A stretch of 44,854 nt of DNA from a virus (Duplodnaviria > Caudoviricetes): the IMG/VR virus record IMGVR_UViG_3300027819_000020, positions 1 through 44,854 of that record; one strand, 5' to 3'. This document shows, in pieces, positions 4,504 through 43,465 of the stretch. A model generated the notes under the pieces. That model made no database searches and was not told the origin of the DNA. It was given only the letters and a program-made list of their open reading frames with translations. The position numbers were made by a program, and so were the translations under genes. How positions within the stretch are numbered: the stretch's first letter is position 1; every line of letters begins with the position of its first letter.

Positions 4504-5147
4504 GGCGCCACCAGCCCGGCCGCAGCGAGCATCTCGGCAAGGTGCTCCCGCCGCCGGTCCCTGGCGGCGGCCCTGGCGGCGGCCCTGGCGGCGTCCCAGG
4601 CGGCGTCCCAGGCGGCGGCCCTGGCGGCGGCCCTGGCGGCGGCCCTGGCGGCGTCCCTGGCGGCGGCCCTGGCGGCGGCCCTGGCGGCGTCCCAGGCGGC
4701 GGCCCTGGCGGCGGCCCTGGCGGCGGCCCTGGCGGCGTCACGCTCTTGCTCGCTCGCCTCACCGGCCAGCCAGCGCCGTTTCGTCGCGATGGCGGCCCAC
4801 GAGCGCGCGTCCGGCTCTCGCCCGGCTTCCCTCTCGCGGAGCAACGCCTGCTCGGCGCACCAGCAGGCAAACTCGTGCAACTCGCGCGTCACGTCACGCG
4901 CGGCCACGAGCCTCCGCCGAGCCGAGACTCCCTTGGTGTCATCATGCGGGCCGTCATCCACGTCCACGATGCAGGCCACCGGCCCCGTCGCATACTGGAG
5001 GGCGTCGAGCCATGATGGTGAGTGGTGGTAGCCTCGCTCGCAGAGCACCAGCGGCCCCGCGATGGTCCGCTCCTCGCCCACGGTCCAGGGCGGCTCATCA
5101 CCCGAGCCTGTAGTCATGTCCGCCCGCAGAAAATGGTAGGCGATCAT
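4500..5147 (-). CDS. phage protein with AARAAA(R/W)D low-complexity repeat
   Basis: MIAYHFL...LCERGYH...DALQYA domain followed by an Ala-rich repeat. Confidence 0.8.
   Translation of the reverse strand: MIAYHFLRADMTTGSGDEPPWTVGEERTIAGPLVLCERGYHHSPSWLDALQYATGPVACIVDVDDGPHDDTKGVSARRRLVAARDVTRELHEFACWCAEQALLREREAGREPDARSWAAIATKRRWLAGEASEQERDAARAAARAAARAAAWDAARAAARAAARDAARAAARAAARAAAWDAAWDAARAAARAAARDRRREHLAEMLAAAGLVAP
4558..4738. repeat. 12-bp tandem repeat, about 15 units
   Basis: Units of ccctggcggcgg / cccaggcggcgt. Confidence 0.9.
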
Positions 5148-11599: not shown

Positions 11600-12124
11600 T
11601 CATGGCTTCGTCTCCAACGGGTGCTGCGACACAATCACGCGCGGCTCAGTGTAAACCGGCCGTGTGTCTGGCCCATTCGGGTCCTTGCAGAGCACCCAGG
11701 TGCCCTCAGCGGACGACGGGGAGAACAGGCCATTAATCTCCGGCTGAGGCAGCCGCTCGGTGCCATAGCGCCTCTCCCCACCAGAACTCCTTGCGGCCAG
11801 GTTGTAGGTCTGCATCGCCTCCGGGGCGGTGAACTGCGTCGCATAGGGGAGAGGATAACCGATCGAGTTGCAGAGGAAGACGAGTTTGCCGTTGAACTCG
11901 TTCCAGAGATACGTGTAAGTGGTGAGGCCAGTCTGGTCCCTCATCTCGTAGATGTCCTTCGCTAGCTTCATCTCGCGAAAGTTCTTGATAGATGGCACAC
12001 CGACCTCTTGAATGCCCTCCGCAACAACAAGCTCCTGACGATCACGCTGAACATCAGCAGCTGTGGGCGTAGGGGCGCAGGCAACGGTCAAGATGCAGGC
12101 TAGTACCAGAAGGACGACTCGCAT
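11600..12124 (-). CDS. phage lipoprotein of unknown function
   Basis: Lipobox TVAC after a hydrophobic N-terminus; SIGYPLPYATQFTAP and PQPEINGLF. Confidence 0.8.
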   Translation of the reverse strand: MRVVLLVLACILTVACAPTPTAADVQRDRQELVVAEGIQEVGVPSIKNFREMKLAKDIYEMRDQTGLTTYTYLWNEFNGKLVFLCNSIGYPLPYATQFTAPEAMQTYNLAARSSGGERRYGTERLPQPEINGLFSPSSAEGTWVLCKDPNGPDTRPVYTEPRVIVSQHPLETKP

Positions 12125-12126
12125 TT

Positions 12127-12471
12127 CTACCTTTCTCCTGTCGTGCGGTCTCTCCGTAGACCGTTGATGAAAGAGCGCAAGGCCTGCGGCACGATGGGAT
12201 CATCCATGTCGTACCCGCTCGCCCGGTGCAAGATGATACTGGACAGAGCGTCTCGCTGTTCCGGGGATGCCTTCACATACTCGAACTGCATATTCTCCAA
12301 CTCCTGAACCATGCCTTGGTTGAATGCGCGAGACTGCTCGAAGATGGTGCGCCGCTGCTGCTCGTAGCGGGGGGCGAAGACGCTGTACCTGAGTAAGGTC
12401 TCTCCCTCGAATAGCCACACCAGGCCGAACACCCCGATAAGCACCGCAAGGACTATGCCGATCACCTTCAT
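12127..12471 (-). CDS. membrane-anchored protein, neighbour of the lipoprotein
   Basis: N-terminal TM helix; FAPRYEQQRRTIFEQS; AGGAGG RBS. Confidence 0.8.
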   Translation of the reverse strand: MKVIGIVLAVLIGVFGLVWLFEGETLLRYSVFAPRYEQQRRTIFEQSRAFNQGMVQELENMQFEYVKASPEQRDALSSIILHRASGYDMDDPIVPQALRSFINGLRRDRTTGER

Positions 12472-12950
12472 TGCTCTGCTCTCCTCCTATCCAGTTTGGG
12501 CGGGTGCCCGTTCTGACCGGGCTGCCTCAGGGTAGCAACATCCCCAGCGGACGCGCCCCGGTATGCCTGTTTTGCCGGATAGCCCTCCGTAGGCAGGGCG
12601 ACCATGGGAGCCTGACGGCCTACATCTCCGGTTGCTACTCTCCACAAGCCCTTTACACCGAGGATCATCGCCGCGCGTCACCATCCGCGCTGACCCGCCC
12701 AGCCATGACCAGGAGGCGCGTTTCGGCGCAGGCGGGAGCCCGTTCCAATGCGTGTGGGGCTCCACTCATTCGACGCATGCGGCCTGCCGAAATGATGTCG
12801 CTGAGGTAGCGTCGCGCGACGCATCCCCAGAAGCCCTCCTGGCCATGGCTGGATGGGGCAGTTGGCCCGTCCAGATCGGGGCATGAGGGACGCCCGGTTC
12901 AGCCGTGAGCGGGAGAGCACGTGTTCCTCGCCCACAACTCGCCTTCAGGC

Positions 12951-13139
12951 TCACGCCCCGGTCTCGATTACGTAGCGCATGACCGCCTCAATGGCGCGTT
13001 CGTGGCCATCGAGTATTTCCCGCCGGTCCGCAATCCGCCGCAGGTCCTGCTCTACATCGGCCGCCGTGACTCCCCTTCCACGGGCGATGGCGTCCACCAG
13101 AACATCGGCCAGCAGCCGCAGCTTCTCGGCGTCCGTCAT
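12951..13139 (-). CDS. hypothetical protein
   Basis: Coupled helical ORF. Confidence 0.6.
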   Translation of the reverse strand: MTDAEKLRLLADVLVDAIARGRGVTAADVEQDLRRIADRREILDGHERAIEAVMRYVIETGA

Positions 13140-13576
13140 TGCAGCAGTCGCACTTCCGGCATGGCCCCCGCCGCCAGTCCGGCCCGAATCTGCTCCGTCG
13201 CCAGATCGCCCATCGTCCGATCCCCAGGACCCAGGAGATACGGCAGAAACTCCTGCTCCATGTCCACTAGCCCATCCTCAACCGCCACCAGCTTGGCCTT
13301 GATGTGGTTCAGGAGCACACGCAATCGGCGCCGTCTCTCCTGCTCGCGCTGCTTCGGCGTCAGGGTGTAGCCATCCAGCGACCGAGGAATGGCCAGGTCA
13401 ACGCGGAACGCCAGGCTGCTGCCCTGATACGGCCAGGAGAACTCAAGGCGGATCACGCCCATCGTGTTCGTCCACCTGGTGGCGTCGACCTTGTGGCGCC
13501 GCAGCAGCACCTCAATCTCAGAGAGAGACTCGCCCTCCGAGACAGCCGTACCCTCGTAGTGACGCCGTTGGCTCAT
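13136..13576 (-). CDS. conserved-looking phage protein
   Basis: YEGTAVS...IKAKLVAVEDG....EFLPYL; GGAGG RBS. Confidence 0.75.
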   Translation of the reverse strand: MSQRRHYEGTAVSEGESLSEIEVLLRRHKVDATRWTNTMGVIRLEFSWPYQGSSLAFRVDLAIPRSLDGYTLTPKQREQERRRRLRVLLNHIKAKLVAVEDGLVDMEQEFLPYLLGPGDRTMGDLATEQIRAGLAAGAMPEVRLLQ

Positions 13577-14184
13577 CCCTGCACCTCCGAGATGGCGCGG
13601 TCCGCCTCTCGGGCGACACGCCGCAGGTGCCGCTCCACGACACGCCGCAGGTAGTGGCTGGGCTTCAGGCCGCGCACCCTGGCTTGCTCAACGAGCACAG
13701 CCCACCAGCGGGAACTGATTCGGAGCGCCACGGGGTACGTTAGGTGTCCGCTATGAGGTTCCGGTGGGCTTGGTTCGGCCACAACTCCATGAGAGTGACG
13801 CCGAGATGGGCCATCAGGGTTATCGCTTCCCTCATGCTGGGGAGTGAGCGGCCCGTCTCCCATAGGCTGATCCGCATGCGCGATAGCTCTGTCCTGTCGG
13901 CGAAGGCGCGCTGCGAGAACCCCCGGTTCCTCCGGTACAGGGACAGGTTGTTCGGGAACATCGCCCCGGCAGAGGGCGACATAGAACCCCCTGGCGAGAG
14001 TGAAGATATCGAGCCCGGCCTGCTTTCTGCTGTTACAGGTCCGGCAGCAGGCGACGCGGTTTCCGTCTTCATTCGTGCCTCCAAGGTGGCGAGGGTGAAC
14101 ATGGTCGATGGTGTCCGCTGGGCCGCCGCAATAGGCGCATGTGTAGTTCGCCGTCTCCAGGATAGAACGCCGCGTCTCTGCCAT
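13573..14184 (-). CDS. HNH endonuclease with C-terminal ribbon-helix-helix-like domain
   Basis: CAYCG...TIDHVHP..LGG.....NRVACCRTCNSRK; C-terminal PVALRIS-helix-G-x-x-x-S-x-YLR. Confidence 0.75.
   Translation of the reverse strand: MAETRRSILETANYTCAYCGGPADTIDHVHPRHLGGTNEDGNRVACCRTCNSRKQAGLDIFTLARGFYVALCRGDVPEQPVPVPEEPGVLAARLRRQDRAIAHADQPMGDGPLTPQHEGSDNPDGPSRRHSHGVVAEPSPPEPHSGHLTYPVALRISSRWWAVLVEQARVRGLKPSHYLRRVVERHLRRVAREADRAISEVQG
13740..13961 (-). CDS. XRE/Cro-CI family HTH protein nested in an alternative frame
   Basis: NNLSLYRRNRGFSQRAFADRTELSRMRISLWETGRSLPS...LGVTLMELW. Confidence 0.85.
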   Translation of the reverse strand: MFPNNLSLYRRNRGFSQRAFADRTELSRMRISLWETGRSLPSMREAITLMAHLGVTLMELWPNQAHRNLIADT

Positions 14185-14191
14185 CGTGCCT

Positions 14192-14223
14192 ATGGTATAC
14201 CACGAGCCGGGGAGCGTTGTCAA
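14192..14223 (-). promoter_or_regulatory. sigma70-type promoter, probably leaderless mRNA
   Basis: TTGACA-18-TATACC(AT) with upstream TG; ATG follows 7-9 nt later with no RBS. Confidence 0.6.
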
Positions 14224-14260
14224 GGGGTTTGTTGGGGGCATGGCCGAGTTGAACGGCGGC

Positions 14261-14527
14261 GCAGGTAGAGGCGGGCTATTGCGCGCGCTGCCCCCTCTAG
14301 ACCTAGACCAACTGGCGGGAGCGAATGCCCTCGCCAGTGCGGCGGAACCGTCCGCCGCTTCTCGCCCCCGCGAGAGTTGTGGGCCTGCGGGGAACCTTGT
14401 TCAGGGCTAACCCGCCTACTGCTGGACGACTGGCCAGGTACACCAGCGCCCGAACCGGGGCTATGGGTGGGCGCCTGCGGCCCACGATGCAGGCGCCGAG
14501 GCAGGGTATCCCCTACCCCTACTGGTG
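14261..14527 (-). ncRNA. candidate structured RNA C (two multibranch domains, possible pseudoknot)
   Basis: Many helices found by hand; preceded by TGCTAGAAT; no credible ORF. Confidence 0.6.
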
Positions 14528-14543
14528 GGCATTCTAGCATGGT

Positions 14544-14621
14544 TGGTAGCGGGGGCGGGATTCGAACCCGCGACCTGCGACTTATAAGGTCGCTGCTCTC
14601 AACCGCCTGAGCTACCCCGCA
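14544..14621 (-). tRNA. tRNA with TAT anticodon (nominally Ile), CCA encoded
   Basis: Cloverleaf: TGCGGGG/CCCCGCT, GCTC/GAGC, GCGAC-CTTATAA-GTCGC, GCGGG-TTCGAAT-CCCGC, ACCA. Confidence 0.95.
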
Positions 14622-14625
14622 TCAT

Positions 14626-14718
14626 TGGCCCCCGCGCTCCACTCGCTGCCCGGCTGGTGTCTGCTCCGCCGGGTCCGAGCCCGCTGACAAACTCAATAGC
14701 CCAGGGCCACGGGGGCCA
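14626..14718 (-). ncRNA. candidate rod-shaped RNA B (about 93 nt)
   Basis: TGGCCCCCG/CGGGGGCCA terminal helix; TATACT at 14724-14729. Confidence 0.5.
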
Positions 14719-14728
14719 GGGGCAGTAT

Positions 14729-14920
14729 AGCTGCTGGGCCGGGGGCCACGCTCCCCCGGATGCCTGCTCATGCCCCGTATCTTACGGACTTAGGGGTTGT
14801 CGTTGTCGGCCCGGTCGCGCTATCCGTCGCGTTGACCGGCCTACCGGAGCAGGCTCCACGTCTTTCTGGGCCACCTACCTGCGCAGGCTCCCCAGCAATC
14901 TCTTCTGCCACCCAGCAGCC
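14729..14920 (-). ncRNA. candidate multibranch RNA A (about 190 nt)
   Basis: GGCTGCTGGG/CCCAGCAGCT closing helix with internal helices; TGCTAGACT 6 nt upstream. Confidence 0.6.
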
Positions 14921-14960
14921 GACCCCAGTCTAGCACAAAGCAAGACGCCCCCCGATGTGC

Positions 14961-15089
14961 TCACCGCCAGACTGCCCACACCACCACGAGCAGCACGAGC
15001 AGCCCCAGCAGGTACCAGCCCATGCCCGAGGTGCCGGCCCACCACGCCAGCCGCGCGACCGGCGAGTCAGGCGCCGCGAGGGGCGGCAC
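14961..15089 (-). CDS. small membrane protein
   Basis: ...WYLLGLLVLLVVVWAVWR. Confidence 0.45.
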   Translation of the reverse strand: MPPLAAPDSPVARLAWWAGTSGMGWYLLGLLVLLVVVWAVWR

Positions 15090-15091
15090 GT

Positions 15092-15295
15092 TTACCCTGC
15101 CAGCTTCGCCTTGCCCACCATCGCGAGCAGGGCCACAGCAGCAGCGCGCACGCTACCAGCTCCGAGCGAGATGGCCCAGAGCTTCCAGTCGGCGACCTGC
15201 GCCGGGTCGAAGTCCACGAGCACCTGAAGCAGGCTCGTGGAGACGGCGATCAGCACCGCCCAGAGTAGCTCCTGCCCCCATTTCCAGTTGTACAT
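15092..15295 (-). CDS. putative holin
   Basis: 67 aa, two TM helices, basic C-terminus, AAGGAGG RBS. Confidence 0.65.
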   Translation of the reverse strand: MYNWKWGQELLWAVLIAVSTSLLQVLVDFDPAQVADWKLWAISLGAGSVRAAAVALLAMVGKAKLAG

Positions 15296-15305
15296 GTCCC
15301 CTCCT

Positions 15306-15545
15306 TTATCCCGTCGCCTCTACGGCAGTCGCGTGGTACACGCTGCCGCACCTCTGGCAGGCTCCCGGCTCGCTGCCTGCCAGGTCGATCAGGCAGGCGT
15401 GGGCCATCTCGTGCAGCAGCTCGATCCGGTACTCGGCCCCGCACTGGGCGCACCGCGCGACGTGAGCCGCGTCCGGGTGCTGCCGCAGGAACCGGCAAAC
15501 GTGGGGCTTCCGGTCGGCCTGGGCGTCAATGGTGCTGGTGGCCAT
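15306..15545 (-). CDS. Zn-ribbon protein
   Basis: CAQCG and CQRCG. Confidence 0.55.
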   Translation of the reverse strand: MATSTIDAQADRKPHVCRFLRQHPDAAHVARCAQCGAEYRIELLHEMAHACLIDLAGSEPGACQRCGSVYHATAVEATG

Positions 15546-15547
15546 CG

Positions 15548-15679
15548 TTACACGAGATGCCCCGCCGCGAACAGCGCCAGCCCAGCCGGGAGCAACGCCA
15601 CCGGCCCGAGCTGGACGCCGAACGCTGCCAGCACGAACACGATCACCGACGCCAAGTACAACGCACGCGCCACGGTCAT
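15548..15679 (-). CDS. small two-TM membrane protein (43 aa)
   Basis: MTVARALYLASVIVFVLAAFGVQLGPVALLPAGLALFAAGHLV; AGGAGG RBS. Confidence 0.65.
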   Translation of the reverse strand: MTVARALYLASVIVFVLAAFGVQLGPVALLPAGLALFAAGHLV

Positions 15680-15704
15680 GCCTCCTGCTCCATCATATCA
15701 AACC

Positions 15705-16082
15705 TCAACCCCACACCTTCAGCGCTACCGAGATCACCAGGCTCGCCAGCGTGACGCCCACGGCACCCGCGGCACCCCACGCGCGCATCGATGCCTGCGA
15801 TGCCCGTAGCTCGCCCTGGAGGTCCCCCAGCGCGCGCTCGATGGTCCGCATCCGGGACTCCGCCGCCCCCGCGTTGGTATCGAACACCTCCCTGGGCAGG
15901 TAGCGTTGCCAGTTCTGGACGGCCTGGGCGTGGGCGTGGTTCAGCTCATCCAGCCGCCGCGCGTACTCAGAGTGCTGAAGCCGCAGGGCCTCGGCCAGCG
16001 CCGCCAGGCGAGTCTCTACCAGGTCGTGCTCGTGCTGGACCCGCGCTTCCAGGTACTCGCGCAACTCAACGCTGAGCGTCAT
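15705..16082 (-). CDS. coiled-coil protein with C-terminal TM (lysis cassette)
   Basis: Helical region plus hydrophobic tail. Confidence 0.7.
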   Translation of the reverse strand: MTLSVELREYLEARVQHEHDLVETRLAALAEALRLQHSEYARRLDELNHAHAQAVQNWQRYLPREVFDTNAGAAESRMRTIERALGDLQGELRASQASMRAWGAAGAVGVTLASLVISVALKVWG

Positions 16083-16381
16083 GGCCGCCGGTGCTGACGC
16101 CGGCCCAGCAGCTCCGCCGACAGGTCGTCCAGGATGTCGATGATTCTCCGGTGCTCAATCTGGCTGGCCTGGGCCGCTACTGCCGCCTGTACAGTGTGCT
16201 CGGCCAGCACCTTGGCCTGGGACTCCATCTGCCCATGGCACGCCGCGAGCAGCTCCCGCAGGGTGCCGATGAACGTCCGCGCCAGCCACGACATGCCGAC
16301 GATGGCCATGAGCAGCAGGGCTCCAGCCGGCCCCCACTGGCGCGCGATCTCGCCGGTGTCGATGACTATCTCGGGAGTCAT
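16079..16381 (-). CDS. holin-like membrane protein
   Basis: QWGPAGALLLMAIVGMSW TM segment followed by a coiled coil. Confidence 0.65.
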   Translation of the reverse strand: MTPEIVIDTGEIARQWGPAGALLLMAIVGMSWLARTFIGTLRELLAACHGQMESQAKVLAEHTVQAAVAAQASQIEHRRIIDILDDLSAELLGRRQHRRP

Positions 16382-16440
16382 GCCGCCCGCTCATCGAGGC
16401 GCGGCAGCAGGTCATCGGACTGGCGGCGGTAGTCGGTCAT

Positions 16441-16929
16441 CTAGCTCCCTATCGCGAGCACATACGCCGTCACGGTTACAGTGCCAGCACCAGCCTTGTA
16501 GATACGCACCGCCGCCGAATTGGCCCAGACGTTCTCAATATAGCATCGGAGATCAGCCGCTCCAGTGTAGCGCACCGACGCAAACGGGAATATCGCCCCG
16601 CCTAGTTGGGAGTTCTCGATGAATGGGACTACTACCTGAGTGTAATCGTCGCCCGCCGCTGCCACCGCTGCCGAGCCGCCCGCGACCGTATTGTTCCCGG
16701 ACCAATATATCCCGGCGTTACGAGCACCAGCAGGTATCCCATGCACCCCAGAAGTGCGCGCCGAGTGCTCGAAAGCGACGCCGGACGCCGTATAGGCCCG
16801 CGCGCTGTTCGCCGTGATCCCCGCGTGGAACGAGCTGGCATTGAACGAGATGAAGTTGTTCCAGTAGCCGAAGGGGAGGATCGAGCTTGCGGTTACTGCC
16901 GAGACGGCGCTGTAGTCATATGCTGCCAT
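16441..16929 (-). CDS. minor tail / receptor-binding protein
   Basis: Follows the tail-tip gene; beta-rich; ends VLAIGS. Confidence 0.65.
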   Translation of the reverse strand: MAAYDYSAVSAVTASSILPFGYWNNFISFNASSFHAGITANSARAYTASGVAFEHSARTSGVHGIPAGARNAGIYWSGNNTVAGGSAAVAAAGDDYTQVVVPFIENSQLGGAIFPFASVRYTGAADLRCYIENVWANSAAVRIYKAGAGTVTVTAYVLAIGS

Positions 16930-16940
16930 GTGCCCCTACC

Positions 16941-18659
16941 TCACCAGATCAGGATGCCCCGGTCGAAACCCGGCCCCACGTCGAACCGGAAGAAGTCGCG
17001 CCCACCGGCCTGAACCAGGCTCTCCGTGAGAAACCACGTCGATACCACGTCGATGCCCTCAGCCGCCTTCGGCCGGATCGTGTCCTGGATCGCTGCCAGG
17101 TGATAGCGCCCGTAGCGGTTCGGGGCGTCCTCGGGGTCGCCCAGCCAGGGGTCCCAGTTGCCATCGTCGTACCGCACCTCAACGCTGTCGCCGAGCTGGG
17201 CGTCCACGGTCATGGCCGGGTCATTGGCGAACGTCACCTTCGGCGTGGCCCGGCTCGGACCGCGCGTTAGGACAATCTGCGTCGCCAGCGAGCCCGCGAG
17301 TCCACGGTCCTGGACCAGCTTGCTGCTCACCTGCTCCGGCTCCATCTGCCGAAACTCGGCAATGCTGCCATCATGCAGCCGCTCGTCAATGATGGCGAGC
17401 TGGGCGTCCATGACGGTGCCGCGAATCTTGAGCGTCTGGACCCAGATAACTCCGGTGTCAGTGTTCTGCAGATTGAAGTCGGCCGAGGCCCCATAGGCTA
17501 CGAAGTTGGGCGCCAAGTTCCCCGTCTTGTCCGCGCCGCTGCCGTCCTCGTTGGCGCTGGCCGTGTAGTCCGTCGTCGCTACCGGCGTCGTCACGGCGCT
17601 GGCCGGCCCCGTGTAGGCCACGTGCAGCGGGATGTACTCCCCCGGCTCCATGCGAATGGGCACCTGCTGATCCTGCAGGCTCCAGAGCGTGCTGGGGCTG
17701 CCCTGCGGCTTGTACGCCTGAGATTGCACCTGGGCGATGTTGCGCAGGTCGTCTATGCTGATCTCCTGCTCCTCGGAAAACATCTCGGCCCCGAGCGTCT
17801 GTTGGGCCGCCCAGGTGCCAGAGCCCTTCGAGCCGGCGCCAATGCTCCGCGCGGCCGTGTACTCGTGGTAGCGGCTGTGCACCACTACGGTGCCGTCGCC
17901 ATCGACGAAATACGACGCACCATAGGCGCTCACGATCTCATCGAGCGCCGCTTTCAGCGTCGAGCGGTCCCACCATGCGTAGGGGATGATGTCGCTAATG
18001 CTGTCAATGCTCCGGGCAATAAAGGCTAGCTCCTCATTGAACAGCGGCGCATTATCGAAGCCATTCCACGCGCCTTGCATATCGAACGTGAACCACAGGT
18101 TAGGGGAGTATTTGAGAATACGAGCCTGATTCAGAATGGTTCCAATGAGAGTATCCACCGCAACGTTGGCCTGCATCGCCAACGAGAACTTGATGCGCTC
18201 CATCTGCTTCATGGCGTCGCTGGCGTAGATGACGCAGGTCTTATCCCCGCCGGGGCTCGTGCGGGTTATCATGCGGTCAATCCAGCCAGTGAAGCGCCGA
18301 TAGACCGTGTGGGCATTGAGTATGTCGATGCGCACCTCGCGCTGTGGCCGCAGGTAGGCGAGCCACGGCTGACCAGACTGCTGGTCAGGCACCAGCTCGC
18401 TGCCGTCGCCGACGAGGATGCTATAGCGGTTCCACGGCGAATACAGGCCGTCGTCGTTGGTCAACTCGATAACGGCCTGCCCAGCCGCGAAGCCGCGCGT
18501 GATGCTCGACTTCCCACGGGAGTAGCGCACGCTGATAACGTGGTCACTGACATCGTTCAGCCGGGCCGAGCTGGGGTTGAGGCTGCCGCTCGTCGCCGCA
18601 GGACGGCTAAACGTGCCGTCATTGCCCCAGTCGATGCGGACCCTCAGCTCGTAGGCCAT
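16941..18659 (-). CDS. tail tip / baseplate hub protein
   Basis: Follows the tape measure gene; VRIDWGNDGTF, SRGK, LTNDDGLYSP, RFTGWI. Confidence 0.75.
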   Translation of the reverse strand: MAYELRVRIDWGNDGTFSRPAATSGSLNPSSARLNDVSDHVISVRYSRGKSSITRGFAAGQAVIELTNDDGLYSPWNRYSILVGDGSELVPDQQSGQPWLAYLRPQREVRIDILNAHTVYRRFTGWIDRMITRTSPGGDKTCVIYASDAMKQMERIKFSLAMQANVAVDTLIGTILNQARILKYSPNLWFTFDMQGAWNGFDNAPLFNEELAFIARSIDSISDIIPYAWWDRSTLKAALDEIVSAYGASYFVDGDGTVVVHSRYHEYTAARSIGAGSKGSGTWAAQQTLGAEMFSEEQEISIDDLRNIAQVQSQAYKPQGSPSTLWSLQDQQVPIRMEPGEYIPLHVAYTGPASAVTTPVATTDYTASANEDGSGADKTGNLAPNFVAYGASADFNLQNTDTGVIWVQTLKIRGTVMDAQLAIIDERLHDGSIAEFRQMEPEQVSSKLVQDRGLAGSLATQIVLTRGPSRATPKVTFANDPAMTVDAQLGDSVEVRYDDGNWDPWLGDPEDAPNRYGRYHLAAIQDTIRPKAAEGIDVVSTWFLTESLVQAGGRDFFRFDVGPGFDRGILIW

Positions 18660-23912: not shown

Positions 23913-23946
23913 GGCGGAGGGGGCCGACGCGGCGGCTACTGCTGGT

Positions 23947-31426: not shown

Positions 31427-32623
31427 CTATCCGTACCCGACATAGTGCGCGTCCAGTTGGTACGACGCGCTGGCATTGGCGTCAAGCGCACCGGAGACGA
31501 TGGCGCGCCAGTCGCGGGACAGCGGCACCGGAGCCACGCCTGCGTAGAGCGTCCCGGCGCCCGCGCCCGGATGGATGGCGTAGGAGAACAGGCCCGCCGT
31601 CGTGATCGAGCTGGCCCATGCGGTGATGGTCCGGTACTTGCCGTTGTGCTTCACCTGCACGATGAGGCCGCCGATAATGGCCGTCGCGGCGGTGCCGTAG
31701 ACGTTGAGATGGAGCACGACGCCGGCGTGCTGGTAATTGACCTGATCTGTAGACGTTCGGCCGCCTACGATATCTGAGGCGCTGGCCAGGAGGACGGCTG
31801 TGGCGTTGTTCCGCTGGCGATCCCAGGTCGCGCCGTTGAAAATGTTGTTGAGCACGCCCTGGTAGACGATGGCATCCGTGTCTGGGGTTGCGATGATGCT
31901 GGGGGAGGCCTGATCGTCTGCTCCGTTATCCGTACGTCGCATCTGACCGACCAGCACGACCGTCCCCACCGTGACGGCCCGTTGTCCGGAGATGAGCGCC
32001 GTAACCGTCCCCACCTGCGCGGTGAGCGTCCCCGCTACCTGAGCTGTCAGGGTGCCAGCCACCTGTGCGGTGACGGTGCCGACTTGCGCCGTGATCGTGC
32101 CAACCGCCGTCACCTGCCCACGCGCTTCAGCGGTGAGAATACCGGCCACCTGAGCCGTCACCGTCCCCACCTGCGCCGTAACGGTCCCGTGGGCGGTGAT
32201 CTGTCCGCCCGCCGTGACTTGGCCATGAGCCGTCACATTGCCGGACATCACCATGGCGCTGATCCCGCCCAGCACTTGCGCGCTCACGGTCCCCACTTGA
32301 GCTGTGATCGTTCCATGGGCCGTGACTGCGCCACCGGCAGTAACCTGCCCGTGCGCTGTCACGTTCCCGCTCATGACCATCGCGGAAATGCCGCCAAGCA
32401 CCTGAGCCGACACGGTGCCCACTTGCGCCGTCACGGTCCCATGGGCCGTGATCTGCCCATGGGCCGTGACGTTCCCGCTCATTACCTGCGCGCTGATAAC
32501 GCCGCCCAGTACCTGGGCCGAGACGGTCCCGTGCGCCGTGACTTCGCCGACCTGAGCAGTCAGCGTGCCATGCGCGGTGACTTGCCCCGAGACACCCTGG
32601 ATGTCGCCGAGTCTCGTCACCAT
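31427..32623 (-). CDS. Thr-rich repeat virion protein (putative head fibre)
   Basis: About 200 aa of VTAHG/VTAQV repeats followed by a beta-rich domain. Confidence 0.7.
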   Translation of the reverse strand: MVTRLGDIQGVSGQVTAHGTLTAQVGEVTAHGTVSAQVLGGVISAQVMSGNVTAHGQITAHGTVTAQVGTVSAQVLGGISAMVMSGNVTAHGQVTAGGAVTAHGTITAQVGTVSAQVLGGISAMVMSGNVTAHGQVTAGGQITAHGTVTAQVGTVTAQVAGILTAEARGQVTAVGTITAQVGTVTAQVAGTLTAQVAGTLTAQVGTVTALISGQRAVTVGTVVLVGQMRRTDNGADDQASPSIIATPDTDAIVYQGVLNNIFNGATWDRQRNNATAVLLASASDIVGGRTSTDQVNYQHAGVVLHLNVYGTAATAIIGGLIVQVKHNGKYRTITAWASSITTAGLFSYAIHPGAGAGTLYAGVAPVPLSRDWRAIVSGALDANASASYQLDAHYVGYG

Positions 32624-41266: not shown

Positions 41267-41512
41267 TCAGACCCATATCGCTCCACAGTAGATACATCGC
41301 CCCGTGTTGTCAGGATCCTCGTGGCCGTCCCATTCGCAGACGTGATTCCGTAGACCGAACGGGGGATCGTCATCTAAAGCCTGCTCGGGGCTAGCGTCGC
41401 CCACTCCTCTCGACGGGAGCCCCCTCACGTACAGATAGAGATTCCGCCATATCTTCTGGCGCGTCGTTGCAGAGAAGCCCCCTCCCACCGCCTGTGCAAC
41501 TACCCGCCTCAC
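41267..41512 (-). CDS. hypothetical protein
   Basis: Coupled to the TerS stop. Confidence 0.5.
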   Translation of the reverse strand: MRRVVAQAVGGGFSATTRQKIWRNLYLYVRGLPSRGVGDASPEQALDDDPPFGLRNHVCEWDGHEDPDNTGRCIYCGAIWV

Positions 41513-42905: not shown

Positions 42906-43108
42906 GCGATCGTTACCCTAACGACGAGCGGCGGGCTCCCGCACTCGGCGCGGTGAGCCGGGTGCTCCATCGCATCCGACAGCGCGCGTAGGCCGTTACC
43001 TCGTAGGGCGGGATCAGCCCACGCTTCGATGCGGCGAGCTACCGCCTCCGCTGTGCCAGTCAGCGATACGCCGCCATGCTCCCACAGTATCCTCGTGTCC
43101 ATCATCAT
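42902..43108 (-). CDS. hypothetical early protein
   Basis: GGAGGAG RBS. Confidence 0.6.
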   Translation of the reverse strand: MMMDTRILWEHGGVSLTGTAEAVARRIEAWADPALRGNGLRALSDAMEHPAHRAECGSPPLVVRVTIA

Positions 43109-43436: not shown

Positions 43437-43465
43437 AGACTACCACGCCTAGTAGCGCGTGTCAA
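43437..43465 (-). promoter_or_regulatory. sigma70-type promoter
   Basis: TTGACA-17-TAGTCT with a TG extension. Confidence 0.8.

What the first reader, a model, noticed from the sequence alone, without database searches (positions are those of the whole stretch)
14261..14527. RNA C: two multibranch domains joined by a 7-bp long-range pairing
Domain 1 is closed by CACCAGT/GCTGGTG and holds GGGGTAGGG-GATA-CCCTGCCTC and GGCGCCTGC-loop-GCAGGCGCC. Domain 2 is closed by AGGCGGGTTA/TAGCCCGCCT and holds TCTCGC/GCGAGA, GCGGCGGA/TCCGCCGC and ACTGGCG/CGCCAGT. The loop sequence GTGGGCC (14485-14479) complements GGCCCAC (14385-14379). Inference: a tertiary-folded RNA such as a ribozyme, scaffold or multimerising RNA.
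Basis: partly seen in the sequence, partly recalled or inferred. Interest (0 to 1): 0.75.

Follow-up and report, generated by a model that had tools for sequence, protein, structure and literature searches.

The report
Orphan hairpin RNA beside phage tRNA
Right after its only tRNA gene, an uncultured phage carries a hairpin-rich 270-base stretch that matches no known RNA family and is likely made as its own non-coding RNA, predicted to be tied by one long-range pairing, but no relative was found to confirm the fold.

Summary
The stretch looks non-coding and has no Rfam match. An extended -10-like 9-mer precedes it; the 9-mer occurs four times in the genome (0.33 expected, pattern chosen after seeing the sites), each time ahead of a structured stretch. 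Four local hairpins are firm in every fold tried, and the three-hairpin block is the second most stable of 896 windows. The two closing helices that make 'two multibranch domains' are weak (pair probability 0-0.32 and at most 0.05); a row of hairpins ending in a long 3' hairpin folds as well or better. The 7-bp pairing has H-type pseudoknot geometry and is affordable, but chance gives it 5-11% of the time. No homolog was found, so covariation is untested. HDV/theta ribozyme, tmRNA, SRP, C4 and IscB-type tests failed. Best reading: a late, stand-alone structured RNA in a small RNA island (two more candidate RNAs upstream of the tRNA), likely a protein-binding scaffold or decoy. A plausible orphan, unproven.

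The parts
14531..14539 (-). Extended -10-like site TGCTAGAAT, candidate promoter of RNA C; implied start near 14523
   Evidence: TGCTAGAVT 4 copies, all on the minus strand, 0.33 expected; promoter role is inference
14258..14527 (-). RNA C, candidate non-coding RNA of about 265 nt
   Evidence: no Rfam hit
14441..14527 (-).
   Evidence: z -3.74 alone; P1 probability 0.00-0.32
14498..14519 (-). Hairpin P2, 9 bp with two G-U pairs, loop GAUA
   Evidence: probability 0.88-1.0
14470..14497 (-). Hairpin P3, 9 Watson-Crick pairs, 10-nt loop
   Evidence: probability 0.87, 0.63 or 0.25 depending on the 5' end
14479..14485 (-). Pseudoknot 5' strand GUGGGCC, flush with the 3' side of the P3 loop (3 nt left to bridge)
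   Evidence: sequence; duplex -13.5 kcal/mol
14424..14451 (-). Rival 10-bp hairpin with one bulge; excludes P1 and the small 14461-14448 hairpin
   Evidence: probability 0.19 (5' end 14530) to 0.82 (5' end 14523); 0.65
14379..14385 (-). Pseudoknot 3' strand GGCCCAC
   Evidence: freeing both strands costs 2.1-3.0 kcal/mol
14311..14375 (-). Three abutting hairpins P6 (6 bp), P7 (8 bp), P8 (7+4 bp): the firm core
   Evidence: probabilities 0.71-1.0
14269..14417 (-).
   Evidence: z -3.12 alone; P5 probability 0.01-0.05 in the whole RNA
14258..14309 (-). Long irregular 3' hairpin (about 17 bp) that uses the 3' strand of P5
   Evidence: probability 0.53-0.97, 0.83-0.91
14544..14621 (-). tRNA-Ile, anticodon UAU, encoded CCA; ends 17 nt before RNA C
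   Evidence: ARAGORN; Rfam 67.3 bits
14626..14718 (-). Candidate RNA B, about 93 nt, closed by a 9-11 bp stem; a TATACT hexamer lies at 14729-14724
   Evidence: z -1.38, weak
14730..14926 (-). Candidate RNA A, about 195 nt, closed by a 9-11 bp stem, behind TGCTAGACT (14935-14927)
   Evidence: z -2.73, 2 of 200 shuffles; no Rfam hit
14194..14223 (-). Promoter-like TTGACA-18-TATACC between RNA C and the HNH gene
   Evidence: read; not passed by the consensus scan because the last base of the -10 is C
13573..14184 (-). HNH endonuclease reading frame, overlapped in another frame by an XRE helix-turn-helix ORF (13740-14102)
   Evidence: Pfam HNH and HTH_3; PHROGs

Best explanation
This is likely a stand-alone, late-expressed non-coding RNA of about 265 nt, one of a small island of phage RNAs around the single tRNA, predicted to fold as a row of hairpins pulled together by one long-range pseudoknot and to work as a stable protein-binding scaffold or decoy rather than as an enzyme. 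Shown: the position, the lack of coding signal, the hairpins, the 7-bp complementarity and the repeated upstream 9-mer. Inferred: transcription from the TGCTAGAAT site (start near 14523), or release from the tRNA precursor when the tRNA 3' end is cut; folding into P2, P3, a 10-bp hairpin, P6-P7-P8 and a 3' hairpin; an H-type pseudoknot in which the P3 loop docks just upstream of P6 and stacks on P3. The decoy or scaffold role is a guess by analogy with tRNA-island RNAs of other phages; no partner was identified.
For: All annotated genes and the tRNA lie on the minus strand. The ORF over the stretch scores -0.24, and the four other ORFs tested there -0.04 to -0.33, against 0.04-0.29 for 18 genes. 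TGCTAGAVT occurs 4 times, all on the minus strand, against 0.33 expected (0 of 100 shuffles); the four sites precede RNA C, RNA A and two small elements that share a 24-nt core (0 of 300 shuffles) and lie in two of the four best-folding windows. P2, P6, P7 and P8 have probabilities of 0.71-1.0 in all folds of RNA C alone. Five of 64 pairs in the named helices are G-U on the minus strand. The hairpin chain with free pseudoknot strands costs 3.9-4.5 kcal/mol over the best nested fold, against -13.5 for the duplex. Precedents: ROOL and GOLLD lie near phage tRNA islands (10.1101/2024.12.08.627333, passages); T4 RNAC and RNAD are late RNAs of unknown function (PMC9697503, passages).
Against: No homolog, so no covariation. 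The whole-stretch fold is only in the top 5-10% of this genome, and the plus strand folds about as well (z -2.07). The promoter pattern was narrowed after seeing the sites; the looser TGNTANANT gives 6 against 3.0 expected (8 of 100 shuffles), and the consensus scan found no promoter in 12000-17000. With the 14523 start, P3 drops to 0.25, because GCCCAC occurs again at 14472 and offers a rival partner. The pseudoknot is within chance (5-11%). No GNRA tetraloop closed by 4 bp was found in the island, unlike many tertiary-folded RNAs (general knowledge).
Confidence: 0.4

Rival explanations
1. One reading: the RNA is released from the tRNA precursor with its longer 5' end, closes into two multibranch domains linked by the 7-bp pairing, and is an elaborate tertiary RNA (new ribozyme or self-assembling unit).
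For: Each domain alone folds as drawn with z -3.74 and -3.12. With the 5' end at 14530 it ties with the chain fold (-141.8 vs -142.4). Domain 2 has two 32-nt linkers that can zip into an irregular stem under the three hairpins. Nearest-neighbour models handle multiloops and tertiary contacts poorly (general knowledge).
Against: P5 probability is at most 0.05 and P1 at most 0.32. The fold loses by 4.9 kcal/mol once the pseudoknot strands are free, and by 9.7 with the promoter-implied start. No known catalytic core was found.
Confidence: 0.2
2. The stretch is a cis element: the 3' trailer of the late operon and tRNA precursor, a run of tandem hairpins that stops transcription, guides tRNA 3' processing and insulates the downstream HNH/HTH promoter.
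For: It lies at the end of the structural and lysis gene block, directly after the tRNA and directly before a TTGACA-type promoter-like site. Only local hairpins are firm.
Against: No U-tailed terminator in the stretch. 265 nt and about seven hairpins exceed what a terminator needs. A promoter-like 9-mer shared with three other elements sits at its 5' end.
Confidence: 0.2
3. It is a G+C-rich spacer whose hairpins arose by chance or local inversion and do nothing.
For: Helix counts are matched by 92 and 25 of 300 shuffles; 8 of 149 same-sized windows fold as well; no conservation could be shown.
Against: Three abutting perfect hairpins are unique in the genome. The tRNA and its flanks take about 740 bases without a credible gene in a densely coding phage. 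The upstream 9-mer is shared with three other elements.
Confidence: 0.12
4. It is a trans-acting antisense regulator of the C4/CI type: the strand GCCCACAACUC, gated by the pseudoknot, pairs with phage transcripts.
For: An 11-nt complement lies at 12940-12930 in a non-coding stretch, and a 9-nt complement at 13787-13779, at a possible internal start of the HNH frame's C-terminal part.
Against: One search lists several other 11-12 nt complements in coding sequence. These two sites are not among the 10 best of 1332 accessibility-corrected duplexes. The Rfam C4 model does not match here (best 11.2 bits, elsewhere; cut-off 45).
Confidence: 0.08

Closest known systems
ROOL and GOLLD RNAs (Rfam families; Kretsch et al., 10.1101/2024.12.08.627333, passages read)
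   Same: Phage-encoded, next to tRNA genes, many hairpins, loop-mediated long-range pairing, function unknown.
   Different: RNA C is about 265 nt; many GOLLD RNAs exceed 800 nt and ROOL is about 600 nt (recalled). No Rfam match. One candidate pseudoknot instead of many; no evidence of cages.
T4 RNAC and RNAD (PMC9697503, passages read)
   Same: Small phage RNAs classed as late and of unknown function; their place in the T4 tRNA region is recalled.
   Different: No sequence match to any phage record. RNA C is about 70% G+C and, from recall, about twice as long.
Theta (minimal HDV-like) ribozymes (PMC10879173, passages read)
   Same: Structured RNA just 3' of a phage tRNA; a 7-bp helix starting with G.
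   Different: The candidate P1 starts 59 nt after the tRNA end, not within 5 nt; no P3/L3/P1.1 core; far longer than a minimal ribozyme.
raiA motif RNA (PMC10861870, passages read)
   Same: Stand-alone RNA of similar size (about 200 nt) with multi-stem architecture and pseudoknots.
   Different: raiA has six covarying stems, two pseudoknots and 51 conserved positions and is chromosomal. No hit in the Rfam scans (that Rfam holds raiA is recalled).
HEARO / omega RNA of IscB systems (recalled)
   Same: Multi-hairpin, pseudoknotted RNA directly upstream of an HNH-containing gene.
   Different: The gene shows only a short HNH domain, with no RuvC family in Pfam; a separate promoter-like site lies between RNA and gene; no Rfam hit.

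Membership tests
Theta / HDV-like ribozyme | Cleavage-site G within 5 nt of the tRNA 3' end | tested here: not met
   tRNA ends at 14544; the structure starts at 14527 and the only 7-bp G-led long-range helix at 14485 (criterion)
Theta / HDV-like ribozyme | Nested double pseudoknot: P3 closing a 7-nt L3, then P1, then the G of P1.1 | tested here: not met
   Own descriptor, both strands of 14200-14960: 0 hits. An L3-like heptamer at 14393 lies just before GGCCCAC but has no closing P3 and no following G. The descriptor was written from recall and not run on a positive control.
Theta / HDV-like ribozyme | Self-cleavage in Mg2+ | not testable with these tools
   needs in vitro transcription
ROOL / GOLLD | Phage location near tRNA | tested here: met
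ROOL / GOLLD | Match to the family covariance model, and large size | tested here: not met
   No hit at gathering score in the window, nor at E<=10 in 14100-14750 and 14625-15000; 265 nt
ROOL / GOLLD | Homo-oligomeric cage through kissing loops | not testable with these tools
   needs biophysics
tmRNA (standard or permuted) | tRNA-like ends with an Ala acceptor plus a tag reading frame | tested here: not met
   ARAGORN finds only tRNA-Ile; the best permuted-tmRNA score is 11.6 bits against 47, on the tRNA T-arm
Bacterial SRP RNA | Helix 8 with symmetric loop and GNRA tetraloop | tested here: not met
   no Rfam hit; recalled core motif and GNRA tetraloop absent
RNase P RNA, group I and group II introns, hammerhead, T-box | Conserved core sequence motifs | tested here: not met
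   no Rfam hit; strict recalled motifs absent
C4 antisense RNA (RF01695) | Match to the model; loops complementary to repeated target sites | tested here: not met
   no match here; no standout target for RNA C
HEARO / omega RNA with IscB | Adjacent gene with split RuvC plus HNH | tested here: not met
   only HNH families on the 222-aa frame
raiA motif | Six stems, two pseudoknots, 51 conserved positions | tested here: inconclusive
   no Rfam hit; not aligned by hand to the published consensus, whose figure could not be seen
Any structured non-coding RNA family | Compensatory base changes among homologs | tested here: inconclusive
   no homolog found in any search

The most novel reading that the evidence does not exclude
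This phage runs a dedicated small-RNA programme: a shared TGCTAGA-T promoter class drives RNA C, RNA A and two paralogous small RNAs, and RNA C founds a new class of compact pseudoknotted phage RNA that folds differently depending on whether it is transcribed from its own promoter or cut from the tRNA precursor, acting as a ribozyme, a self-assembling unit or an anti-defence decoy.
Probability: 0.2. Interest if true: 0.8.

Novelty: new variant of a known kind. Interest (0 to 1): 0.45.

Why it matters
Structured RNAs beside phage tRNAs (GOLLD, ROOL, T4 RNAC/RNAD) are a standing puzzle: abundant, late, without known function. A 265-nt example is small enough to transcribe, probe and image directly, and it comes with two more candidate RNAs and a shared promoter motif in a 45-kb genome. 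Comparative screens need homologs, and one large IMG/VR screen reported only motifs of 29-151 nt (PMC10690425, passages), so orphans of this size would be missed. Without homologs or expression data it stays a candidate.

Tried and rejected
Homolog searches, none gave a relative of RNA C. Viral contigs: two neighbour proteins (0 of 4 and 0 of 3 candidate stretches confirmed); a two-motif RNA pattern; G+C-rich tRNA-Ile(UAU) (2 loci of one unrelated phage type); a holin-like alignment (3 loci, no tRNA or RNA match); tRNA end plus the 9-mer (24 loci, local scores to RNA C 14-21, at the level that shuffled sequence gave); a three-motif junction pattern (25 loci, none with the three hairpins). Metagenome scan: 1 of 241 stretches, the identical contig L004. 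Genome scan: 3 of 34, weak protein hits only. blastn of phage and plasmid records: only tRNA hits or E>=0.8 fragments. Covariance models R1 and R2 were each built from the single window sequence aligned to its own copy, so they have limited reach and no positive control besides the window. They found no paralog in the window, none in 42 of the fetched loci (R1 only), 0 of 150 and 0 of 150 genomes of two phyla for R1, 0 of 150 for R2 and 0 of 5 records each. The holin-like alignment matched 0 of 401 genomes of one phylum. The host phylum was not determined. Sequencing runs: no RNA holder listed. Wastewater and drinking-water contigs carry 93-100% identical pieces of the HNH/HTH region at depth 2-7 but have no cover over RNA C, which shows nothing about its presence. 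Runs X1 and X2 match RNA C without a difference but may be the source of the window. Rejected readings: a 106-aa ORF over the stretch (its one Pfam hit is below cut-off); RNA A and RNA C as paralogs (local score 29 against 37 +/- 6 for shuffles); one 670-nt RNA spanning A-B-tRNA-C (z -2.55; a 10-bp A-C complement at 14884/14259 does not form in the predicted folds); a T-armless tRNA-like reading of 14470-14410 (by eye, acceptor 5 of 7, dropped). Paper search returned nothing; some searches listed only the general papers cited. That this RNA is not in print rests only on these term searches; the supplementary tables of PMC10690425 were not opened and could hold a fragment of it.

Full report
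Setting. The window is a whole virus record of 44,854 bases, estimated 85% complete. PHROGs matches give a tailed-phage layout with all annotated genes on the minus strand: terminase, portal, head and tail genes, tape measure, then small lysis-type genes, then replication genes. Between a 42-codon membrane-like ORF ending at 14961 and an HNH frame whose likely start is 14184 lie about 740 bases with one tRNA-Ile(UAU) at 14621-14544. The finding is the part between the tRNA and the HNH gene, read on the minus strand.

Checking the observation. The stretch looks non-coding: the 106-codon ORF over it scores -0.24 on a codon model trained on 18 genes that score 0.04 to 0.29, and four other ORFs there score -0.04 to -0.33. 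Contigs of the two runs that may be the source reproduce the stretch without a difference. Folding is above chance locally. The window 14301-14400 has z -5.36, second of 896 windows, and it is the only one of 8957 70-nt windows with three disjoint perfect hairpins, a width chosen after the fact. The whole stretch is less striking: z -2.47, plus strand -2.07, and 8 of 149 same-sized windows do as well.

Which fold. P2, P6, P7 and P8 hold in every ensemble of RNA C alone (0.71-1.0). The closing helices do not: P1 0.00-0.32, P5 0.01-0.05. The 3' strand of P5 prefers a local irregular hairpin at 14309-14258 (0.53-0.97), and the 3' strand of P1 can form a 10-bp hairpin at 14451-14424 (0.19-0.82).

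The 7-bp pairing. It is one of five Watson-Crick helices of 7 bp or more in the RNA. The loop strand lies flush against the 3' strand of P3 and leaves 3 nt to bridge, the geometry of an H-type pseudoknot (established knowledge). Freeing both strands costs 2.1-3.0 kcal/mol, or 3.9-4.5 with the chain helices enforced, against -13.5 for the duplex; a pseudoknot penalty of 7-10 kcal/mol (recalled) leaves it marginal to favourable. But chance gives this loop a 7-nt partner in 10.9% of shuffles and in the flush register in 5.1%; 3 of 33 other genome hairpins show the same. GCCCAC also occurs at 14472, and with the short 5' end P3 falls to 0.25. The pairing is plausible and unproven.

Signals for expression. 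TGCTAGAAT lies 5 nt after the tRNA's CCA. TGCTAGAVT occurs four times, always on the minus strand, against 0.33 expected (0 of 100 shuffles); the pattern was narrowed after seeing the sites, and the looser form gives 6 against 3.0. The other copies precede candidate RNA A (14926-14730, z -2.73) and two elements at 23946 and 36362 that share a 24-nt core and a hairpin (0 of 300 shuffles). TTGACA-type sites with a 16-18 nt spacer occur separately at 43465, 31167 and 7516, and an imperfect one lies between RNA C and the HNH gene (not passed). I infer two promoter classes, with the TGCTAGA-T class serving small RNAs. If it is used, RNA C starts near 14523 and P1 cannot form; if RNA C is cut from the tRNA precursor it keeps the longer end and P1 can form.

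Homologs. Eight viral scans, one metagenome scan, one genome scan, blastn of phage and plasmid records and single-sequence covariance models over loci and genome samples found no relative. The phage itself is isolated: its tail protein has three relatives at 24-28% identity and its terminase about 41%.

How it likely works. I commit, at 0.4, to a late stand-alone RNA that folds into a hairpin row compacted by the pseudoknot and serves as a stable scaffold or decoy for a protein, alongside the tRNA and RNAs A and B. Position, hairpins and motif are shown; transcription, pseudoknot and role are inferred. The last rests on 11- and 9-nt complements at 12940 and 13787, which do not rank among the 10 best of 1332 duplexes.

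Comparison with known RNAs. Rfam gives only the tRNA. Theta ribozymes cleave within 5 nt of the tRNA end and need the HDV core (PMC10879173, passages); neither holds here. ROOL and GOLLD share the setting but are much larger (10.1101/2024.12.08.627333, passages). T4 RNAC and RNAD are late RNAs of unknown function (PMC9697503, passages). raiA is similar in size but is defined by features not matched here (PMC10861870, passages). C4 does not match (PMC2864571, passages). The HNH neighbour shows no RuvC family, so an IscB-type guide RNA is unlikely. It sits where tRNA-island phage RNAs sit but is a member of no family tested. One earlier unchecked AI note describes a pseudoknotted phage RNA plus accessory hairpins after a tRNA mimic in another genome; sequence look-ups found no look-alike.

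Verdict. This is a credible orphan phage RNA candidate within a small RNA island, interest 0.45.

Noticed in passing
window 23955-23870 and 36371-36278, minus strand: Two paralogous elements inside the structural gene block: TGCTAGA-T, about 35-40 nt, an identical 24-nt core (TCCTGAGCGGCCCCGACCGCCCCC) and a hairpin, with a T tail in the second. No Rfam match; a 17-nt piece has 6 viral matches, one (L016) also behind a promoter-like site.
   Followed up: partly
window 14926-14730, minus strand: Candidate RNA A, about 195 nt, closed by a 9-11 bp stem (z -2.73). It contains a short frame reading ADNDNP-stop that resembles the start of tmRNA tags (recalled), but ARAGORN and Rfam see no tmRNA.
   Followed up: partly
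window 14718-14626, minus strand: Candidate RNA B directly before the tRNA. Its loop region TTGTCAG complements CTGACAA at 41313, 31114, 11306 and 2412, which recalls C4/CI-type antisense systems; the Rfam C4 model does not match.
   Followed up: partly
window 31167-31045, minus strand: TTGACA-17-TACACT promoter-like site followed by an 11-bp hairpin whose loop (ATACTCCTC) is anti-Shine-Dalgarno-like and pairs best with GAGGAG sites, one just before the gene at 43106: a candidate small RNA.
   Followed up: partly
window 14184-13573, minus strand: One open frame joins an N-terminal HNH domain to a C-terminal stretch that looks ribbon-helix-helix-like by eye, while an XRE helix-turn-helix gene is nested in another frame of the same strand. 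Codon scores favour the XRE frame in the overlap.
   Followed up: partly
window 14621-14544, minus strand: The tRNA has anticodon UAU and a U-U first pair; AUA is 15 of 316 Ile codons in 20 genes counted.
   Followed up: no
window 12950-12480, minus strand: About 470 nt without a credible gene (codon scores -0.20 and -0.26), holding 11-nt complements to both RNA C (12940) and RNA A (12887); no Rfam match.
   Followed up: partly
window 43465-43425 and 7516-7475, minus strand: Both TTGACA-type promoter-like sites are overlaid by CTAC...GTAG inverted repeats, possibly operators.
   Followed up: no
window 4509-4785 and 31998-32569: A 12-bp tandem repeat in a DUF7666-like gene, and longer repeats in a 398-aa gene near the head module.
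   Followed up: no
L029:633-1001 (also L041, L046 by the same sequence): An A+T-rich phage contig carries a permuted tmRNA (tag ANDNFAPLALAA) with TGCTAGAAT in its intervening segment; unrelated to this finding.
   Followed up: no
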